64,000 nt of DNA from a virus. Its lineage: Duplodnaviria > Heunggongvirae > Uroviricota > Caudoviricetes. A program made the position numbers and the translations under genes. Below are positions 6,639 to 51,631 of this stretch, piece after piece. Position 1 is the stretch's first letter, and each line of letters begins with the position of its first letter. Location: the IMG/VR virus record IMGVR_UViG_3300029186_000001; one strand, 5' to 3'. The notes under the pieces are model-generated. The model was not told the origin of the DNA and did not search any database. It was given only the letters and a program-made list of their open reading frames with translations.

Positions 6639-7028
6639 TTAAATAACCGGACAATCATCAAATTCCCCACTTCGGGCATCATTGATGACATGAGTGATCA
6701 CACCAAAAACAGCATTACTGCCCGTGTATCCATCGTCATCTACTGGTAACGCCTCTTTCTTCCCGGTGCTTAAGTCCTCCAGGTGCTGGCGCGGATACTT
6801 CCTGTATCTCTTTATGCGATATTCACCCTCCATAGCGCACACAAGCAGAGAACCATCAACCGGAGTAAGCGAGGAATCAACCACCAGCAAAGCACCCTGC
6901 AATATTCCCTCACGGTGATGGCTATCAGCTGCCCGCATGAAGTAGGTCGCTGAAGGATGTCTAATTATCTGCTGATCAAGAGAAATTCGGCTTTCAACAT
7001 AATCCGCCGCAGGAGAAGGGAAGCCCAT
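6639..7028 (-). CDS. humD: HumD, UmuD-prime-like S24 peptidase-family protein (129 aa)
   Basis: UmuD/LexA C-terminal domain-like sequence; LexA box directly upstream. Confidence 0.85.
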   Translation of the reverse strand: MGFPSPAADYVESRISLDQQIIRHPSATYFMRAADSHHREGILQGALLVVDSSLTPVDGSLLVCAMEGEYRIKRYRKYPRQHLEDLSTGKKEALPVDDDGYTGSNAVFGVITHVINDARSGEFDDCPVI

Positions 7029-7151: not shown

Positions 7152-7403
7152 TTATTTTTTTGGTGCATCCTCGTTCTGATACACCGGATCGCTCCCTTTT
7201 GGCAACTGGAGGCTTAACTGCCGGTAGTGCCGTAGCCGTTCCATGAAATAGGCGCGCAGGTTTTCCGGTTGCTCACGGGCCACCTGCTCTGCAATCACAG
7301 GTATATTCAGCCGTTCTTTGTAAGCAACGCCGCTGGCGGCAAGGTCTACGTTCACCTTGTCTCGCTCTTCCTGGCTTTTAGCTGCTATATTTCGATCTGA
7401 CAC
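7152..7403 (-). CDS. hot: Hot, homolog of DNA polymerase III theta subunit HolE (83 aa)
   Basis: [39 protein letters not shown] aligns with E. coli HolE ([39 protein letters not shown]). Confidence 0.85.
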
Positions 7404-7435: not shown

Positions 7436-7786
7436 ATGCACAATAACGTTCTCAATGTTAGCCGTTCAATTCAGACAATCAGAGACTGCACCAGTGTGGT
7501 GGCATCAATCCCATTGCGAAACAGCATAGACGAACTGCAAATTCGTGTATTGAATCCGAATCAGGCTAATAAGCAATTGCGCTTTATTTTGACGCTGAAA
7601 AGTGAAACAGAGGGGATAAAGCACAGCGTAAAAGTGTTTTCTGAGGCCATTCTGCTTAATGGGAAGCTCCGGCATCTGGTAAGGCCAGAACGTCAATATC
7701 CTGACGTCCTGGCGCGTGAAAAAGACCTTCTTTCTGAAGTTCAGGATAGGGTGATCGATTTCGTCAAATGCTATCCCCTGCATTGA
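7436..7786 (+). CDS. Hypothetical protein (116 aa), doubtful
   Basis: Only plus-strand ORF in a minus-strand block; weak RBS; mutually exclusive with a 92-aa antisense ORF. Confidence 0.2.
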   Translation: MHNNVLNVSRSIQTIRDCTSVVASIPLRNSIDELQIRVLNPNQANKQLRFILTLKSETEGIKHSVKVFSEAILLNGKLRHLVRPERQYPDVLAREKDLLSEVQDRVIDFVKCYPLH

Positions 7787-8628
7787 GGGCAGGTGTTCCC
7801 TTCCGCAAAGTAGGGAAAATTGCTATCAAGTTCATCACACCATCTGCGATGGTCGTAGCACCAAAAAGCCTCCCACGGTAAACCAAAAGACTTCATCCAC
7901 TGGGACACTCGATCTGGTATATCTGCTGGTGGCAGTTCTTCTGGCAATAATTTGCCTGATAATTCCCTTTCCGCCCGCGACAGCATTTTTTTGAGGCTCG
8001 CGTTCTCTTTTTCAGCCACCAGCGGCAATAAAGCCCTGGCCATCTTATGAACCAATAGTGCATCAATAATGCCAAGCGTATGCCCCGGCTTAATGTTTAA
8101 TGCCGCCTCAAGGTGACACCTTTCCAAGTCACTTTTCTCGGCTTGTTTATGATGATCTGGTGTAATAACGTCGCCCAAAACACGGCTAATTCTTTCTCGT
8201 AATTGCTGGGTGCCAGCACACTTGATCGCTGTATCGTGGAGACGGTTAACCAGTTCGCGATAAACATGCGGCTTAATGCGGATACGTTCACCGGTGACGC
8301 CCTTTCCTGGCGCTGGCACCGAACTATCCGGAATATCCGGATAGTTGCCAGCCTCGTAAGCTACCCACAGCCAGTGCATGAATGTTTCAGTGGACACACA
8401 ACCACAGTCCACATCGATTTTTCCGCGTTGCTGTCCCAGCCAATGCTCAAAATTCAATCTACACGTATTACTTTCATGTTGCTCTTTTTGTCTCAAGGCC
8501 AGCATCTGCTGGGCTATTTCCAATACTTCATCTGCCGTATATCCAGCACCGTGACCATACATTTCGATACGGGAAATAATCTCTGATATGCGCTCTTCAG
8601 TGATTCTGGTCATTTCTTTTTGCGCCAT
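7771..8628 (-). CDS. Hypothetical protein (285 aa) with C-terminal Cys cluster
   Basis: ORF with C-terminal CYDHRRWCD...CPQC; shares the GNYP-IPD motif with the 412-aa protein. Confidence 0.6.
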   Translation of the reverse strand: MAQKEMTRITEERISEIISRIEMYGHGAGYTADEVLEIAQQMLALRQKEQHESNTCRLNFEHWLGQQRGKIDVDCGCVSTETFMHWLWVAYEAGNYPDIPDSSVPAPGKGVTGERIRIKPHVYRELVNRLHDTAIKCAGTQQLRERISRVLGDVITPDHHKQAEKSDLERCHLEAALNIKPGHTLGIIDALLVHKMARALLPLVAEKENASLKKMLSRAERELSGKLLPEELPPADIPDRVSQWMKSFGLPWEAFWCYDHRRWCDELDSNFPYFAEGNTCPQCRG

Positions 8629-8984
8629 TTCTTTTCACATTCCTTAGTCCATTCTTCAATGTTCATTTTGGCAATATCAGTCATTCCATCACCTAAGAAA
8701 TACTTTTTCCGGTATGTCTTGCACTTAAACCACACTACAACAGCCACCAGCCAGAAAATAAAAGGCCATACAGCAATACCAACGACAGCCGCGATAAAGC
8801 CCAATAGCCATAAATGAAGCTCTCCAACTTCTGTTTCCGGCAATATTCTTAAAGAATTAAACAGCAGGATGAACGAATGGTCGTATGCATTGGCAGTACA
8901 AGACATGCAATCCATATAATTAAAGTCATAGCCTGCGGCTGCCGCCCATAATGGGCGGTCAAGAAAATGTTTTAGTGTCATCAT
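8610..8984 (-). CDS. Small membrane protein (124 aa, two predicted TM helices, Lys-rich tail)
   Basis: Hydrophobic stretches LWLLGFIAAVVGIAVWPFIFWLVAVVVWF; AT-rich coding region. Confidence 0.5.
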   Translation of the reverse strand: MMTLKHFLDRPLWAAAAGYDFNYMDCMSCTANAYDHSFILLFNSLRILPETEVGELHLWLLGFIAAVVGIAVWPFIFWLVAVVVWFKCKTYRKKYFLGDGMTDIAKMNIEEWTKECEKKWRKKK

Positions 8985-8990
8985 ATAAAT

Positions 8991-9284
8991 TTAAGGTTCA
9001 GACCAGTTATCTTCAATAGCAATGCTTAATCTTTGTAGCCATTCTGCTAATTTCAGCATTGCTTCTCTTTCGCTTAAACCACGAGGAAAATCATCAAGCG
9101 AAATTGTTGGCTTGAATCCCCCGCAATTATCCATTTCAACTGTCAGATTTTGTTCCAGCACGGTATTTCTTACGCGGCTATTGTGCCGGAGCAAATATAC
9201 TGAGCGTGATTTATTGGTTTTGTGGTCTAGCTTATATTCGGTAAGTATCATCTGGCTTTTGCCATGATTATTACCTCTCCACAT
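8991..9284 (-). CDS. Hypothetical protein (97 aa from internal ATG)
   Basis: ATG at 9284 preceded by GAGGTAAG RBS immediately after the stop of the 40-aa peptide ORF; the listed 129-aa ORF starts at an upstream TTG overlapping that peptide. Confidence 0.45.
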   Translation of the reverse strand: MWRGNNHGKSQMILTEYKLDHKTNKSRSVYLLRHNSRVRNTVLEQNLTVEMDNCGGFKPTISLDDFPRGLSEREAMLKLAEWLQRLSIAIEDNWSEP

Positions 9285-9291
9285 ACTTACC

Positions 9292-9414
9292 TCACTTAAT
9301 AAAACAACTCCATGCGTAGTTGATGATTTTTTCCCACGTAATATAAATCTGCACTCCGGCAGTAAAACCAAAGCCAACAATTGCTGAAAAAATCAAAACA
9401 TTTACTTTTGACAT
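9292..9414 (-). CDS. Small hydrophobic peptide (40 aa, one predicted TM helix)
   Basis: ORF MSKVNVLIFSAIVGFGFTAGVQIYITWEKIINYAWSCFIK, absent from the ORF track because under 60 aa; stop lies 7 nt before the next ATG. Confidence 0.35.
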   Translation of the reverse strand: MSKVNVLIFSAIVGFGFTAGVQIYITWEKIINYAWSCFIK

Positions 9415-9462: not shown

Positions 9463-9696
9463 TTAGTGAGTTAGCAGTTCCATTTTTTTGATGATTTCCG
9501 CATGAGCATCATCGTTATCAACACTTAGCTCGTTTAATGCTTCTCGCACTACATCAACTTCTTCAGGCTGAAAGAAGTCGTCGCGGTAATCACCAAATAG
9601 AACCGAAACCAGCCTGCCACCAGCAACATCAAGATTGGCGCTAACAGGTGGCTCTTTGCCATCCTCAAATTCGACTACAAAAGTTAATTTTCCCAT
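9463..9696 (-). CDS. Small acidic protein (77 aa)
   Basis: ORF with GGGGGT RBS, tightly packed in the minus-strand operon. Confidence 0.5.
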   Translation of the reverse strand: MGKLTFVVEFEDGKEPPVSANLDVAGGRLVSVLFGDYRDDFFQPEEVDVVREALNELSVDNDDAHAEIIKKMELLTH

Positions 9697-9772
9697 CGTT
9701 ACCCCCAGAAGATAAAAATAGCGGCAATCGCCATAGCTACGCCTACAATCGCAAATGCTTCAGGCCAGCTTA

Positions 9773-10033
9773 TTACCTCACCTCCAGTCTCCATACCGCC
9801 TGACCAATCCGGCTGGCATGGGTATCTTTGGATACTGTTCCATCTTTAGCCATCTCCATAAGAATTTTGCGCAAATCTGCCGAACGCCATTCTTCATCAG
9901 GAAATTCCTTCTCCATTGCCAACCGCAGATTCCAGGTTGCCATCCTGAATGGATATTTCCCGCCGAGAGCTTTATCTTGCAGGGCAGCCCGGGAACGCAT
10001 CACCTGCAAAACCTTCTCTTTTACATCCATCAT
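9773..10033 (-). CDS. Hypothetical protein (86 aa)
   Basis: ORF whose start overlaps the stop of the upstream 412-aa gene. Confidence 0.5.
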   Translation of the reverse strand: MMDVKEKVLQVMRSRAALQDKALGGKYPFRMATWNLRLAMEKEFPDEEWRSADLRKILMEMAKDGTVSKDTHASRIGQAVWRLEVR

Positions 10034-14377: not shown

Positions 14378-14464
14378 TTACCCATGCGCGACGATGCCGC
14401 CAAAAGTGATAGAGAACAGCCAGAAATAGATCGCGGCCATAATGATTTTGAATGCCGTGTTCAT
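14378..14464 (-). CDS. Small hydrophobic leader peptide (28 aa)
   Basis: MNTAFKIIMAAIYFWLFSITFGGIVAHG with AGGAG RBS; its stop codon lies inside the RBS of the 242-aa gene. Confidence 0.3.
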   Translation of the reverse strand: MNTAFKIIMAAIYFWLFSITFGGIVAHG

Positions 14465-14546: not shown

Positions 14547-14563
14547 ATATTTATTAGAGCAAT
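14547..14563 (-). promoter_or_regulatory. C1 operator-like 17-mer (16/17 to consensus)
   Basis: ATATTTATTAGAGCAAT on plus strand; ~85 nt upstream of the 28-aa peptide ORF. Confidence 0.55.
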
Positions 14564-15069
14564 TATTGTTGGTGGAGAAGCGCGTTTTCATACTCCCTGA
14601 CCATTAACGTAAGTACGCCGTGACTCCTGAAAACACGCGCCACTTCAATCTTATCTTCCAGCGCGAACGCAATTTTACTTAGACCAATTTTCTTCAGGAG
14701 ATCAATCTTTGCTGGACCGTCATTTCTGTCATCGGTGGCAGGACGCATAGATAGCAAAGGCTCAGCCCCGTTTGTTACGTACTTCCGCAGCCAGGCTCGT
14801 GTTTTATCCCTTGCGATCTCACAGCGCCCGGTTACAAACCAGACCGTGTAAACGTTAAATAACTGGCGCACCATATCAATAACCGGAGTGATGGGAGTAT
14901 CGGTGTCACAGGCGAGATTAAACTCGTTCCAGTCCTTTGTTAATGCACCTTTACCTGGTGGCGGAAGCAAATGCAGTCTGTCTTCAGTTGCCTCTGATAT
15001 TGTTCCATCAATATCGACTATGACGATATACGGACGTTCCTGGTGTGCGTGTTTATTGAAAATACTCAA
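14563..15069 (-). CDS. HAD-superfamily phosphatase-like protein (168 aa)
   Basis: N-terminal IVIVDIDGT (DxDxT) motif typical of HAD phosphatases. Confidence 0.55.
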   Translation of the reverse strand: MSIFNKHAHQERPYIVIVDIDGTISEATEDRLHLLPPPGKGALTKDWNEFNLACDTDTPITPVIDMVRQLFNVYTVWFVTGRCEIARDKTRAWLRKYVTNGAEPLLSMRPATDDRNDGPAKIDLLKKIGLSKIAFALEDKIEVARVFRSHGVLTLMVREYENALLHQQ

Positions 15070-49411: not shown

Positions 49412-49428
49412 AAATTTATTAGAGCAAA
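49412..49428 (-). promoter_or_regulatory. C1 operator-like 17-mer (16/17), Op53-type
   Basis: AAATTTATTAGAGCAAA ~70 nt upstream of kilA. Confidence 0.6.
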
Positions 49429-51134: not shown

Positions 51135-51194
51135 AATGGCAGCCTCCTTTTGCTAATTTAAGGAGCTACCGCGTGAGGTTCCAATCTCAATGGC

Positions 51195-51290
51195 GGTAGC
51201 ACTGACTGGGTTGGAACTACCGGCGCAAAAGGGAACCGGCCTGCCTTTCGGCAGCCCAGCCAGCACTACCATTGATCTCGGAGCTATGTG
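51195..51290 (-). ncRNA. c4-type antisense repressor RNA region (approximate bounds)
   Basis: Between operator and icd the transcript carries GTTCCAA (51208-51221 region) complementary to ATTGGAACC elements at 51364-51378 and 51175-51188, fitting the c4 a-prime/b-prime logic; ends not determined. Confidence 0.35.
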
Positions 51291-51468
51291 CTACGTATGG
51301 TTGTGCGATGGCATGACACAAAAAAAGACGCTTTTGGCGTCTATGTCGCCTTTTGCATTATCCGGGGTTCCAATCCCGGCATCCGTTTTACTAAGATGCC
51401 TGTTTAGGATAAACCGAAAATGCATTAGCACGCAAGCAAGTTAATGTAGCATATGAAGCTAAAAAAAT

Positions 51469-51485
51469 AAAATAATTAGAGCAAC
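51469..51485 (-). promoter_or_regulatory. C1 operator-like 17-mer (14/17), Op51-type
   Basis: AAAATAATTAGAGCAAC upstream of the c4-icd-ant operon. Confidence 0.5.
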
Positions 51486-51553
51486 TTGCAACCATGTAAA
51501 TTATTTCTCTGGTAACTAAAATGTATGAGTTTAATTGATATGGGTCAAAGATT

Positions 51554-51582
51554 TTGACCATTGCATGGTGAAACTTTATGCT
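51554..51582 (+). promoter_or_regulatory. Sigma70-like promoter for the AT-rich cassette
   Basis: TTGACC -35, 17-bp spacer, TATGCT -10, ~50 nt upstream of 51632; overlapped by palindrome GGTCAAA-GAT-TTTGACC at 51543-51559. Confidence 0.4.
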
Positions 51583-51631
51583 ACAAAATGTTATTTTAAG
51601 GCGTTTTATCTGTGGCAGGAGATAGTTAATC

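What the first reader, a model, noticed from the sequence alone, without database searches (positions are those of the whole stretch)
8610..9414. AT-rich module of small membrane proteins including an unlisted 40-aa peptide gene
Within the minus-strand accessory operon, 8610-9414 is visibly more AT-rich than its neighbours. It encodes a 124-aa two-TM protein with a poly-Lys tail, a 97-aa protein and, just upstream, a 40-aa single-TM peptide missing from the ORF track. The peptide stop sits 7 nt before the ATG of the 97-aa gene and supplies its RBS (TGA-GGTAAGT-ATG), so the listed 129-aa ORF is probably an artefactual fusion. Small membrane peptide plus partner modules in phages are often toxins, holin-like factors or exclusion proteins.
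Basis: seen in the sequence. Interest (0 to 1): 0.5.

Follow-up and report, generated by a model that had tools for sequence, protein, structure and literature searches.

The report
Three shuffled accessory genes in P1-like plasmid
The AT-rich stretch holds three real but uncharacterised small genes, including a 40-residue membrane peptide, in a known hypervariable, dispensable early operon of P1-like phage-plasmids; each gene is swapped between phages on its own, so they are ordinary accessory cargo, not a toxin or lysis module.

Summary
The sequence-level observation holds. Interval 8610-9414 has 38.9% GC against 47.5% for the window. On the minus strand it carries a 40-aa gene (9292-9414), a 97-aa gene (8991-9284) and a 124-aa gene (8610-8984). 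The peptide's TGA lies 7 nt before the 97-aa ATG and forms part of a strong Shine-Dalgarno site. The 129-aa TTG ORF is an artefact.

None of this is new. The window is a P1-like (SJ46/RCS47-type, IncY) phage-plasmid. The interval lies in published "variable region 8" (pmgT to humD), which is low in GC and dispensable in P1. The three proteins match PHROG families 5525, 1258 and 2638 over their full length; all three families have unknown function. The exact 40-aa sequence is deposited in NCBI and UniProt and occurs on at least 1000 contigs. Only RefSeq/PGAP and the first-stage ORF track omit it.

The "peptide plus partner" reading fails, because the genes assort independently:
- The 97-aa gene occurs without the 40-aa gene in 16 of 80 loci, and without the 124-aa gene in 8 of 80.
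- Lambdoid phages carry a 40-aa homolog next to unrelated genes.

No toxin-antitoxin, holin, defence or RNA family matches. The "two-TM" call for the 124-aa protein is unproven. The operon lies under P1's C1 operator OpmgT, which implies early lytic expression. Function remains unknown.

The parts
9292..9414 (-). 40-aa peptide gene: MSKVNVLIFSAIVGFGFTAGVQIYITWEKIINYAWSCFIK. It has one moderately hydrophobic, Gly-rich segment (residues 6-27) containing a GxxxG motif (G16-G20), and a short amphipathic C-tail.
   Evidence: Full-length match to PHROG 5525, E 1.2e-24. Annotated as J46_0090 in phage SJ46. The exact sequence is in NCBI and UniProt on at least 1000 contigs. 40-aa homologs of about 50% identity occur in lambdoid-type phages. 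pS 0.71 against pN 0.38 in this frame only. The SD is weak, -3.0 kcal/mol. PGAP does not call it.
9285..9294 (-). Junction: TGA stop of the peptide gene followed by GGTAAGT. TGAGGT supplies the Shine-Dalgarno site for the 97-aa gene. This point is also a mosaic (recombination) boundary.
   Evidence: Sequence read directly. Duplex energy -9.6 kcal/mol. Homology to genomes that lack the peptide gene starts about 6 nt before the ATG.
8991..9284 (-). 97-aa soluble protein: four-stranded antiparallel sheet plus a conserved C-terminal helix (DFPxGLSEREAMLKLAxWLxRL..IEDNWS).
8991..9380 (-). 129-aa TTG ORF: an artefactual 5' extension of the 97-aa gene that overlaps the peptide gene in another frame.
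   Evidence: No SD, +0.6 kcal/mol. The extension is not conserved where the peptide gene is absent. Only some automatic callers (JGI, ENA, Logan) report 129- or 140-aa versions.
8610..8984 (-). 124-aa membrane protein. It has a conserved N-terminal motif (KHFxDxPxWAAAAGYDFNxxDC), a 31-residue hydrophobic stretch (57-87) with a central Pro, and a basic C-terminal region. There is no SD, and the ATG lies 6 nt after the 97-aa stop, which suggests translational coupling.
   Evidence: PHROG 2638. The family is small: 36 representatives among 1.84 billion proteins. Alignments. Hydropathy and charge. AlphaFold pLDDT 55. RBS energies.
9463..9696 (-). 77-aa acidic protein (PHROG 3876). It travels with the P1-type 40-aa gene and belongs to the same low-GC block.
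7771..8628 (-). Next gene in the operon (285 aa, a mosaic of several PHROGs). Its start overlaps the last 19 nt of the 124-aa gene, which encode that gene's Lys-rich tail.
14547..14563 (-). C1 repressor operator (P1 OpmgT/Op88) overlapping the PpmgT promoters. This is the inferred control point of the minus-strand operon that contains the interval.
   Evidence: One mismatch to the operator consensus. The region aligns at 96% identity with the annotated P1 OpmgT and P1/P2pmgT region. No terminator signal above chance lies between it and the interval.

Best explanation
The interval is a string of independent, horizontally exchanged accessory gene cassettes: [77 aa + 40 aa], [97 aa] and [124 aa]. 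They sit in the hypervariable, dispensable pmgT-to-hot segment ('variable region 8') of a P1-like phage-plasmid.

Shown here:
- The genes are packed head to tail in a minus-strand operon that begins at the C1-operator-controlled PpmgT promoters.
- The 97-aa gene starts at ATG 9284, using a strong SD that overlaps the peptide gene's stop codon.
- The 124-aa gene has no SD and starts 6 nt after the 97-aa stop.
- The next gene overlaps the 124-aa gene by 19 nt.
- Recombination joints fall at gene boundaries.
- Each gene also occurs on its own in the early accessory regions (ea/exo-xis, nin, recombination/Dam) of lambdoid and other temperate phages.
- The four genes from 77 aa to 124 aa have low GC3. 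This fits recent import from a lower-GC donor pool; 124-aa relatives occur in Proteus, Morganella and Yersinia phages.

Inferred:
- The genes are silent in the lysogen and are transcribed early once C1 repression is lifted.
- The 124-aa gene is translated by termination-reinitiation coupling.
- The 40-aa GxxxG peptide and the 124-aa protein insert into the inner membrane. Positive-inside charge favours a cytoplasmic C-terminus for the 124-aa protein. Each acts separately on a host or competitor target at the envelope during lytic growth.
- The 97-aa protein is a soluble binder that acts through its conserved C-terminal helix.

Their biochemical targets are unknown.
For: Identity and context:
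- The interval is 100% identical to IncY plasmid pEC13-3 and 97-98% identical to phages SJ46 and vB_EcoM-813R1.
- The flanks match P1 pap, hot, humD, phd and doc.
- The operator and promoter are conserved with P1 OpmgT/PpmgT.
- Variable region 8 and its low GC are described in PMC9603915. pmgT through hot are non-essential in P1 according to PMC10695390.

Independent assortment:
- Among 80 loci, 64 carry the 40-, 97- and 124-aa genes (63 of them also the 77-aa gene), 8 carry 97+124 only, and 8 carry 97 only. Some loci have a 234-nt insert between the 97-aa and 124-aa genes.
- The P1-type 40-aa gene is always found with the 97-aa gene (65/65; the 77-aa gene is detected in 64 of these), whereas the lambdoid-type 40-aa gene never has either (0/15).
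- 97-aa homologs sit in lambdoid nin or early-left regions with varying neighbours.
- 124-aa homologs sit after O/P, or in an RdgC-exonuclease-[gene]-Dam-DinI arrangement.

Starts and RBS.
Coding test for the 40-aa gene.
GC3.
Prevalence: 309 of 5426 complete E. coli genomes carry the interval, and 314 of 318 places are on plasmids.
Against: - No expression data exist for this element. Control by C1 is inferred from sequence conservation with P1, about 5 kb upstream.
- Internal promoters in the AT-rich DNA cannot be excluded. The scan found none above chance.
- The 40-aa gene has only a weak SD (-3.0 kcal/mol).
- Protein-level constraint on the 40-aa gene is moderate (pN/pS about 0.5).
- Membrane insertion and topology rest on hydropathy alone. 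A simplified Hessa sum for the 40-aa segment is borderline, +2.3 kcal/mol for 19 residues.
- Within P1-like elements the 40-aa gene is always next to the 97-aa gene (65/65), so a lineage-specific functional link is not formally excluded.
- The function statement is generic.
Confidence: 0.75

Rival explanations
1. Superinfection-exclusion or anti-competitor role. The 40-aa peptide and/or the 124-aa membrane protein would sit in the inner membrane and block DNA entry or membrane functions used by other phages, as T4 Imm/Sp or HK97 gp15 do. This is a specific version of the generic 'envelope-acting accessory' idea.
For: Both are small predicted inner-membrane proteins. They are encoded in variable accessory regions of several temperate phages. 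They are dispensable for growth by analogy with P1 region 8. The resemblance to known exclusion proteins comes from general knowledge and was not tested here.
Against: There is no sequence or profile similarity to any known exclusion or defence protein (PADLOC, Pfam, NCBIfam). Exclusion genes of temperate phages are usually expressed in the lysogen, whereas this operon appears to be C1-repressed. No phenotype data exist.
Confidence: 0.2
2. Toxin-antitoxin or toxin-immunity pair. The hydrophobic 40-aa peptide (or the 124-aa protein) would be a membrane toxin, neutralised by its neighbour or by an antisense RNA, as in type I systems or CptA/YgfX-like systems.
For: The peptide is short and hydrophobic. 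The 124-aa protein gives a weak Pfam hit to Cpta_toxin (E 0.075, 13.6 bits). A promoter-like site on the plus strand at 9259-9287 faces into the peptide gene.
Against: The Cpta_toxin score is well below the 27.3-bit cut-off, and only 2 of 29 family members hit the model. The genes assort independently, so no obligate partner exists. There is no Rfam antitoxin RNA and no plus-strand terminator, and the promoter-like count is at chance level (7 found against 8.7 expected). There is no PADLOC hit. The genes are embedded in a long operon and do not form a self-contained locus.
Confidence: 0.06
3. Holin or lysis-timing factor. The 124-aa protein, with a hydrophobic core and a highly charged C-terminus, and/or the peptide would act as holin, antiholin or spanin-like lysis proteins.
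For: A TM segment followed by a Lys/Arg-rich cytoplasmic tail resembles the general architecture of holins.
Against: None of the phages examined has an endolysin or lysis cassette next to these genes. The neighbours are replication, recombination, Dam, ea22 and DUF551 genes. The upstream promoter is of the C1-controlled sigma-70 type, with no late promoter. The equivalent P1 region is dispensable for plaque formation.
Confidence: 0.04
4. The 40-aa ORF is not a functional protein gene. It would be a translated or untranslated leader whose only role is to deliver ribosomes, or the SD, to the 97-aa gene.
For: The SD is weak. PGAP does not call the ORF. One contig has ATG changed to CTG, and another carries a frameshift. 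pN/pS is only about 0.5. In genomes without it, the 97-aa gene has its own GGAG.
Against: The exact 40-codon length and the motif N-x-L...GFG..AG...YI.W...IN.AWS are kept between the P1-type and lambdoid-type copies, at only 57% nucleotide identity and with different downstream genes. Constraint is specific to this frame: the pN/pS ratio is 0.53, against 0.91 and 1.30 in the other two frames. The match to PHROG 5525 is full length. The ORF is intact in 144 of 148 copies.
Confidence: 0.08

Closest known systems
[quoted passage not shown]
   Same: Same genomic slot, between pap/OpmgT and hot/humD/phd/doc. The region is low in GC, its content varies between P1-like elements, and it is dispensable in P1.
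   Different: Reference P1 and P7 carry pmgT/U/V and upfM/N/O here, and have no homolog of the 40-aa or 124-aa genes detectable by tblastn. This window carries the SJ46/RCS47-type replacement set: ead/Ea22-like, DUF551, and the 86-, 77-, 40-, 97- and 124-aa genes.
PHROG families 5525 (40 aa), 1258 (97 aa) and 2638 (124 aa), all of unknown function
   Same: Full-length, high-scoring profile matches with E 1e-24, 1e-49 and 1e-62.
   Different: Nothing differs. These are members of those families, and no function is attached to any of them.
Early accessory genes of lambdoid phages (ea22/eaa, exo-xis and nin regions)
   Same: Short, tightly packed or overlapping genes that are exchanged at gene boundaries and non-essential. 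Homologs of the 40-aa, 97-aa and 124-aa genes actually lie in those regions of lambdoid-type phages and prophages. Ead/Ea22-like and DUF551 genes lie in the same operon here.
   Different: Here they sit in a P1-type genome under a C1-operator promoter, where lambdoid phages use pL/pR with N antitermination.
Small phage inner-membrane exclusion proteins (T4 Imm and Sp, HK97 gp15); comparison from general knowledge
   Same: Size class, predicted membrane location and accessory status.
   Different: No detectable sequence or profile similarity. No phenotype was tested. This is an analogy of kind only.
CptA/YgfX membrane toxin (Pfam PF07254)
   Same: Weak sub-threshold similarity over the hydrophobic region of the 124-aa protein.
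   Different: The score of 13.6 bits is below the 27.3 cut-off. Only 2 of 29 family members hit the model. There is no CptB/SdhE-like partner gene.

Membership tests
PHROG 5525 (40-aa phage protein, unknown function) | Full-length match to the 40-position family profile | tested here: met
   E 1.2e-24, residues 1-40 on profile positions 1-40 of 40
PHROG 1258 (97-aa phage protein, unknown function) | Full-length match to the 97-position family profile | tested here: met
   E 1.4e-49, positions 1-97 of 97. Homolog lengths are 97 aa.
PHROG 2638 (about 120-aa phage protein, unknown function) | Full-length match to the family profile | tested here: met
   E 1.5e-62, residues 1-122 on profile positions 1-120 of 120
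P1-like variable region 8 cargo | Located between pap/OpmgT and hot-humD-phd-doc in a P1-type genome | tested here: met
   The region is defined in PMC9603915.
Type I toxin-antitoxin | Small hydrophobic toxin peptide | tested here: met
   40 aa with a hydrophobic segment at residues 6-27
Type I toxin-antitoxin | Cis- or trans-encoded antisense RNA with its own promoter and terminator | tested here: inconclusive
   No Rfam family matches. One plus-strand promoter-like site lies at 9259-9287, but the count is at chance level and no plus-strand terminator follows. No transcript data exist.
Type I toxin-antitoxin | Self-contained locus that moves as a unit | tested here: not met
   The gene is embedded in a long operon. 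Its neighbours differ between the P1-type and lambdoid-type copies.
CptA/YgfX toxin (PF07254) | Score at or above the Pfam gathering threshold | tested here: not met
   13.6 bits against a 27.3 cut-off. Only 2 of 29 relatives hit the model.
Holin | Encoded in a lysis cassette next to an endolysin or spanin | tested here: not met
   Neighbours in nine different contexts are early, replication, recombination or methylase genes.
Holin | Late expression | not testable with these tools
   Only inference is possible. The upstream control element is the C1 operator with sigma-70 promoters, and no late promoter is present.
Holin | At least one TM segment and a charged C-terminal tail | tested here: met
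   The 124-aa protein has a hydrophobic stretch at 57-87, and its C-terminal domain has net charge +6.
YidC/Oxa1 insertase (a label attached to the 40-aa protein in one public source) | Score at or above the Pfam PF02096 threshold | tested here: not met
   12.8 bits against a cut-off of 35. The label seen is spurious.
Known anti-phage defence systems (PADLOC) | Match to any PADLOC model | tested here: not met
   No hit at E up to 1 for any of the seven operon proteins

The most novel reading that the evidence does not exclude
The 40-aa GxxxG peptide (PHROG 5525) would be a functional phage micro-protein that binds and modulates a host inner-membrane complex early in lytic growth. It would be one of several hidden hydrophobic micro-ORFs in the same C1-controlled operon; the others are the 28-aa ORF at 14378-14464, which is unannotated even in reference P1, and the 31-aa ORF at 9699-9794. 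P1-type phages would then deploy an unrecognised set of membrane micropeptides.
Probability: 0.12. Interest if true: 0.5.

Novelty: already known. Interest (0 to 1): 0.18.

Why it matters
The practical value is mostly for annotation:
- The 97-aa start is settled, and the 129/140-aa calls made by some pipelines are wrong.
- RefSeq/PGAP systematically omits a conserved 40-aa gene that is present in about 5% of complete E. coli genomes.
- Several public names attached to these proteins ('YidC insertase', 'conotoxin', 'ribonucleotide reductase') are spurious.

Biologically, the interval is a clean example of gene-by-gene mosaicism between P1-like phage-plasmids and lambdoid phages. It does not reveal a new system. 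The small membrane proteins are reasonable, low-priority candidates for screens of phage early-gene function.

Tried and rejected
- Pfam, NCBIfam, PADLOC and Rfam searches of the operon proteins and DNA gave nothing at or near threshold.
- A profile search of PDB sequences with the 97-aa and 124-aa alignments gave nothing.
- The afdb50 library was unavailable.
- The AlphaFold model of the 124-aa protein had low confidence (pLDDT 55), so it was not used for fold search or topology.
- I considered a His/Cys metal site (H6, C26, C88, C116) in the 124-aa protein. These residues are invariant among close relatives but not across the wider family, so I dropped the idea.
- The 77-aa protein was tested as a relative of the Ea22/Eaa proteins that precede the lambdoid 40-aa gene. 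No similarity was found.
- The gene downstream of the lambdoid 40-aa gene was tested as a 97-aa homolog. It is not one.
- The promoter and terminator scan found nothing above the shuffled expectation.
Full report
**What the window is.** The interval is 100% identical to E. coli IncY plasmid pEC13-3 and 97-98% identical to the P1-like phages SJ46 and vB_EcoM-813R1. A 20-kb stretch around it matches P1, P7, RCS47 and related phages at about 98%, except for a variable middle part. Downstream on the minus strand lie hot (7152-7403), humD (6639-7028), and then phd and doc. Upstream lies a pap-like gene (14563-15069). Next to it, at 14547-14563, is a C1 operator with one mismatch to the consensus. 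This region aligns at 96% identity with P1's annotated OpmgT (Op88) operator and P1/P2pmgT promoters. The finding therefore lies inside the C1-controlled operon that in P1 carries pmgT, pmgU and pmgV. A comparative study of P1-like phage-plasmids lists this segment (pmgT to humD) as one of eight highly variable regions and links such regions with low GC (PMC9603915). CRISPRi and deletion data for P1 show that every gene from pmgT to doc is non-essential (PMC10695390).

**Checking the observation.** GC over 8610-9414 is 0.389 against a window mean of 0.475. Only 3.3% of equal-sized windows are as low, and these cluster in this region and at 51179-53916. By GC3, the low-GC block consists of four genes: 77-aa 0.35, 40-aa 0.34, 97-aa 0.36 and 124-aa 0.42, against 0.45-0.55 in the neighbours. 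It therefore extends to 9696, beyond the reported end. The junction reads AAG-TGA-GGTAAGT-ATG. TGAGGT pairs with the anti-SD at -9.6 kcal/mol, within the top 7% of positions in the region. The TTG at 9380 has no SD (+0.6).

**The 97-aa start is settled.**
- In 16 of 80 related IMG/VR loci the peptide gene is absent. There the sequence upstream of the same ATG (MWRG...) is unrelated and carries its own GGAG and stop codons.
- Homologs of 48-70% identity in Klebsiella, Citrobacter, Salmonella, Erwinia and Pantoea prophages are almost all exactly 97 aa. W2 and Q11 are conserved, while Met12 (the start used in the SJ46 record) is not always present.
- PHROG 1258 is a 97-position profile matched over positions 1-97.
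- PGAP aa.
- The 129-aa and 140-aa versions appear only in some automatic gene calls.

**The 40-aa ORF is a real gene, but it is already known.**
- It matches PHROG 5525 over all 40 positions (E 1.2e-24).
- It is annotated as J46_0090 in phage SJ46.
- The exact sequence is deposited in NCBI and UniProt and seen on at least 1000 contigs.
- tblastn finds 40-aa homologs of about 50% identity in lambdoid-type phages (EC.W1-9, phiv142-3). There they are annotated and begin at the stop codon of an ea22/Eaa gene.
- P1-type and lambdoid-type copies share only 57% nucleotide identity. They keep the length and the motif N-x-L...GFG..AG...YI.W...IN.AWS, which includes a GxxxG.
- pS is 0.71 and pN 0.38 in this frame, a ratio of 0.53. 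The other two frames give 0.91 and 1.30.
- The ORF is intact in 144 of 148 copies. The exceptions are one contig with ATG changed to CTG and one with a frameshift. A further variant reads through the stop for 7 codons.

Three caveats apply. The SD is weak (-3.0 kcal/mol). The constraint is moderate. PGAP does not annotate the gene. The first-stage track missed it only because of a length cut-off.

**The 124-aa protein.** It matches PHROG 2638. An exhaustive profile search found only 36 representative relatives among 1.84 billion proteins, all 58-131 aa except for two long proteins with weak repeat hits. Conserved features are an N-terminal motif (KHFxDxPxWAAAAGYDFNxxDC), an acidic DxEVRELP stretch, a hydrophobic stretch of about 30 residues with a central Pro-Phe, and a basic region after it. 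The hydrophobic stretch (57-87) is too short for two ordinary membrane spans. AlphaFold draws a single helix over 55-97, but at pLDDT 55. The charge distribution is N-domain -4 and C-domain +6, which favours a cytoplasmic C-terminus. 'Two-TM' is therefore unproven. The terminal KKK lies in the 19-nt overlap with the next gene and varies among relatives. The sub-threshold Cpta_toxin hit (13.6 bits against 27.3) occurs in only 2 of 29 relatives and is rejected.

**It is not a module.** Among 80 loci found with the 97-aa protein, 64 carry the 40-, 97- and 124-aa genes (63 of them also the 77-aa gene), 8 carry 97+124 only and 8 carry 97 only. Some have a 234-nt insert between the 97-aa and 124-aa genes. 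Among 80 loci found with the peptide, the P1-type copy is always followed by the 97-aa gene (65/65) and is preceded by the 77-aa gene in all but one (64/65). The lambdoid-type copy has none of them (0/15), and its downstream gene is unrelated to the 97-aa protein. In distant prophages the 97-aa gene sits in nin or early-left regions with changing neighbours such as DUF551, Ead/Ea22, methylases and dATP/dGTP pyrophosphohydrolase. The 124-aa gene sits after O/P, or in an RdgC-exonuclease-[gene]-Dam-DinI arrangement. Megablast breakpoints against RCS47-type genomes fall at 9290 and 8609, which are gene boundaries. These are independent cassettes of the ea/nin kind. The same operon here also holds ead/Ea22-like and DUF551 genes.

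**How it most likely works.** What is shown is the operon architecture, the gene starts, and the independent exchange of the genes. The rest is inferred:
- Transcription begins at PpmgT once C1 is removed, so the genes are early lytic and silent in the lysogen.
- The 97-aa gene is translated from the SD embedded in the peptide's stop codon.
- The 124-aa gene is translated by reinitiation 6 nt after the 97-aa stop, since it has no SD.
- The peptide and the 124-aa protein insert into the inner membrane and act separately on envelope targets.
- The 97-aa protein binds a partner through its C-terminal helix.

No toxin-antitoxin, holin, defence or RNA family is matched, and promoter-like and terminator-like sites are at chance level. 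I rate exclusion-type activity as the most plausible specific function, at about 0.2. The toxin-antitoxin, holin and 'non-coding leader' readings are each rated at 0.08 or below.

**Verdict.** The feature itself is ordinary: already catalogued genes of unknown function, in a known hypervariable and dispensable region. They are carried by 309 of 5426 complete E. coli genomes, almost always on plasmids. Novelty is 'already known' and interest is low. The residual value lies in annotation fixes, and in the observation that this operon contains several unannotated hydrophobic micro-ORFs.

Noticed in passing
window 14378-14464 (-): 28-aa hydrophobic ORF (MNTAFKIIMAAIYFWLFSITFGGIVAHG) with an SD (-6.6 kcal/mol). 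It lies between the C1 operator OpmgT and the pmgT-like gene. The sequence is identical in reference P1 (NC_005856), where no CDS is annotated at this position.
   Followed up: partly
window 9699-9794 (-): 31-aa hydrophobic ORF (METGGEVISWPEAFAIVGVAMAIAAIFIFWG) between the 86-aa and 77-aa genes, ending 2 nt before the 77-aa ATG. In 15 related loci the first ATG is followed by a stop, but an internal ATG gives MSWPEAF... (24 aa). Diverged versions keep MSWPEAF plus a hydrophobic tail, which suggests another unannotated micro-gene.
   Followed up: partly
window 51179-53916: The only other stretch of the window as AT-rich as the finding. It contains plus-strand ORFs of 116, 158, 344 and 188 aa. 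It was not examined.
   Followed up: no
window 9259-9287 (+): Sigma-70-like site (TTGCCA-17-CATACT, 9 of 12 positions) pointing antisense into the 40-aa gene. The overall count of such sites is at chance level, and no terminator follows.
   Followed up: partly
window, 12 sites (e.g. 30743-30759, 34265-34281, 49412-49428, 14547-14563): Twelve matches to the P1 C1 operator consensus ATTGCTCTAATAAATTT with at most 3 mismatches, against 0.3 expected by chance. This is consistent with a P1-type immunity network across the window.
   Followed up: partly
related records: plasmid NZ_CP056963.1 (hit H17); Yersinia phage P840 locus L006 2501-2860; Proteus phage records; 40-aa protein cluster listing: An IS1 element interrupts the module in an E. 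fergusonii plasmid. Several public names for these proteins are spurious: 'membrane protein insertase Oxa1/YidC' for the 40-aa peptide, 'conotoxin' for the Yersinia phage 124-aa homolog, and 'ribonucleotide reductase large subunit' over the Proteus phage homologs.
   Followed up: no
window 7771-8628 (-): The 285-aa gene after the module is itself a mosaic of several PHROG families (21459, 3797, 60, 924 and others). In the otherwise identical plasmid pEC13-3 it is replaced by a 214-aa gene.
   Followed up: no
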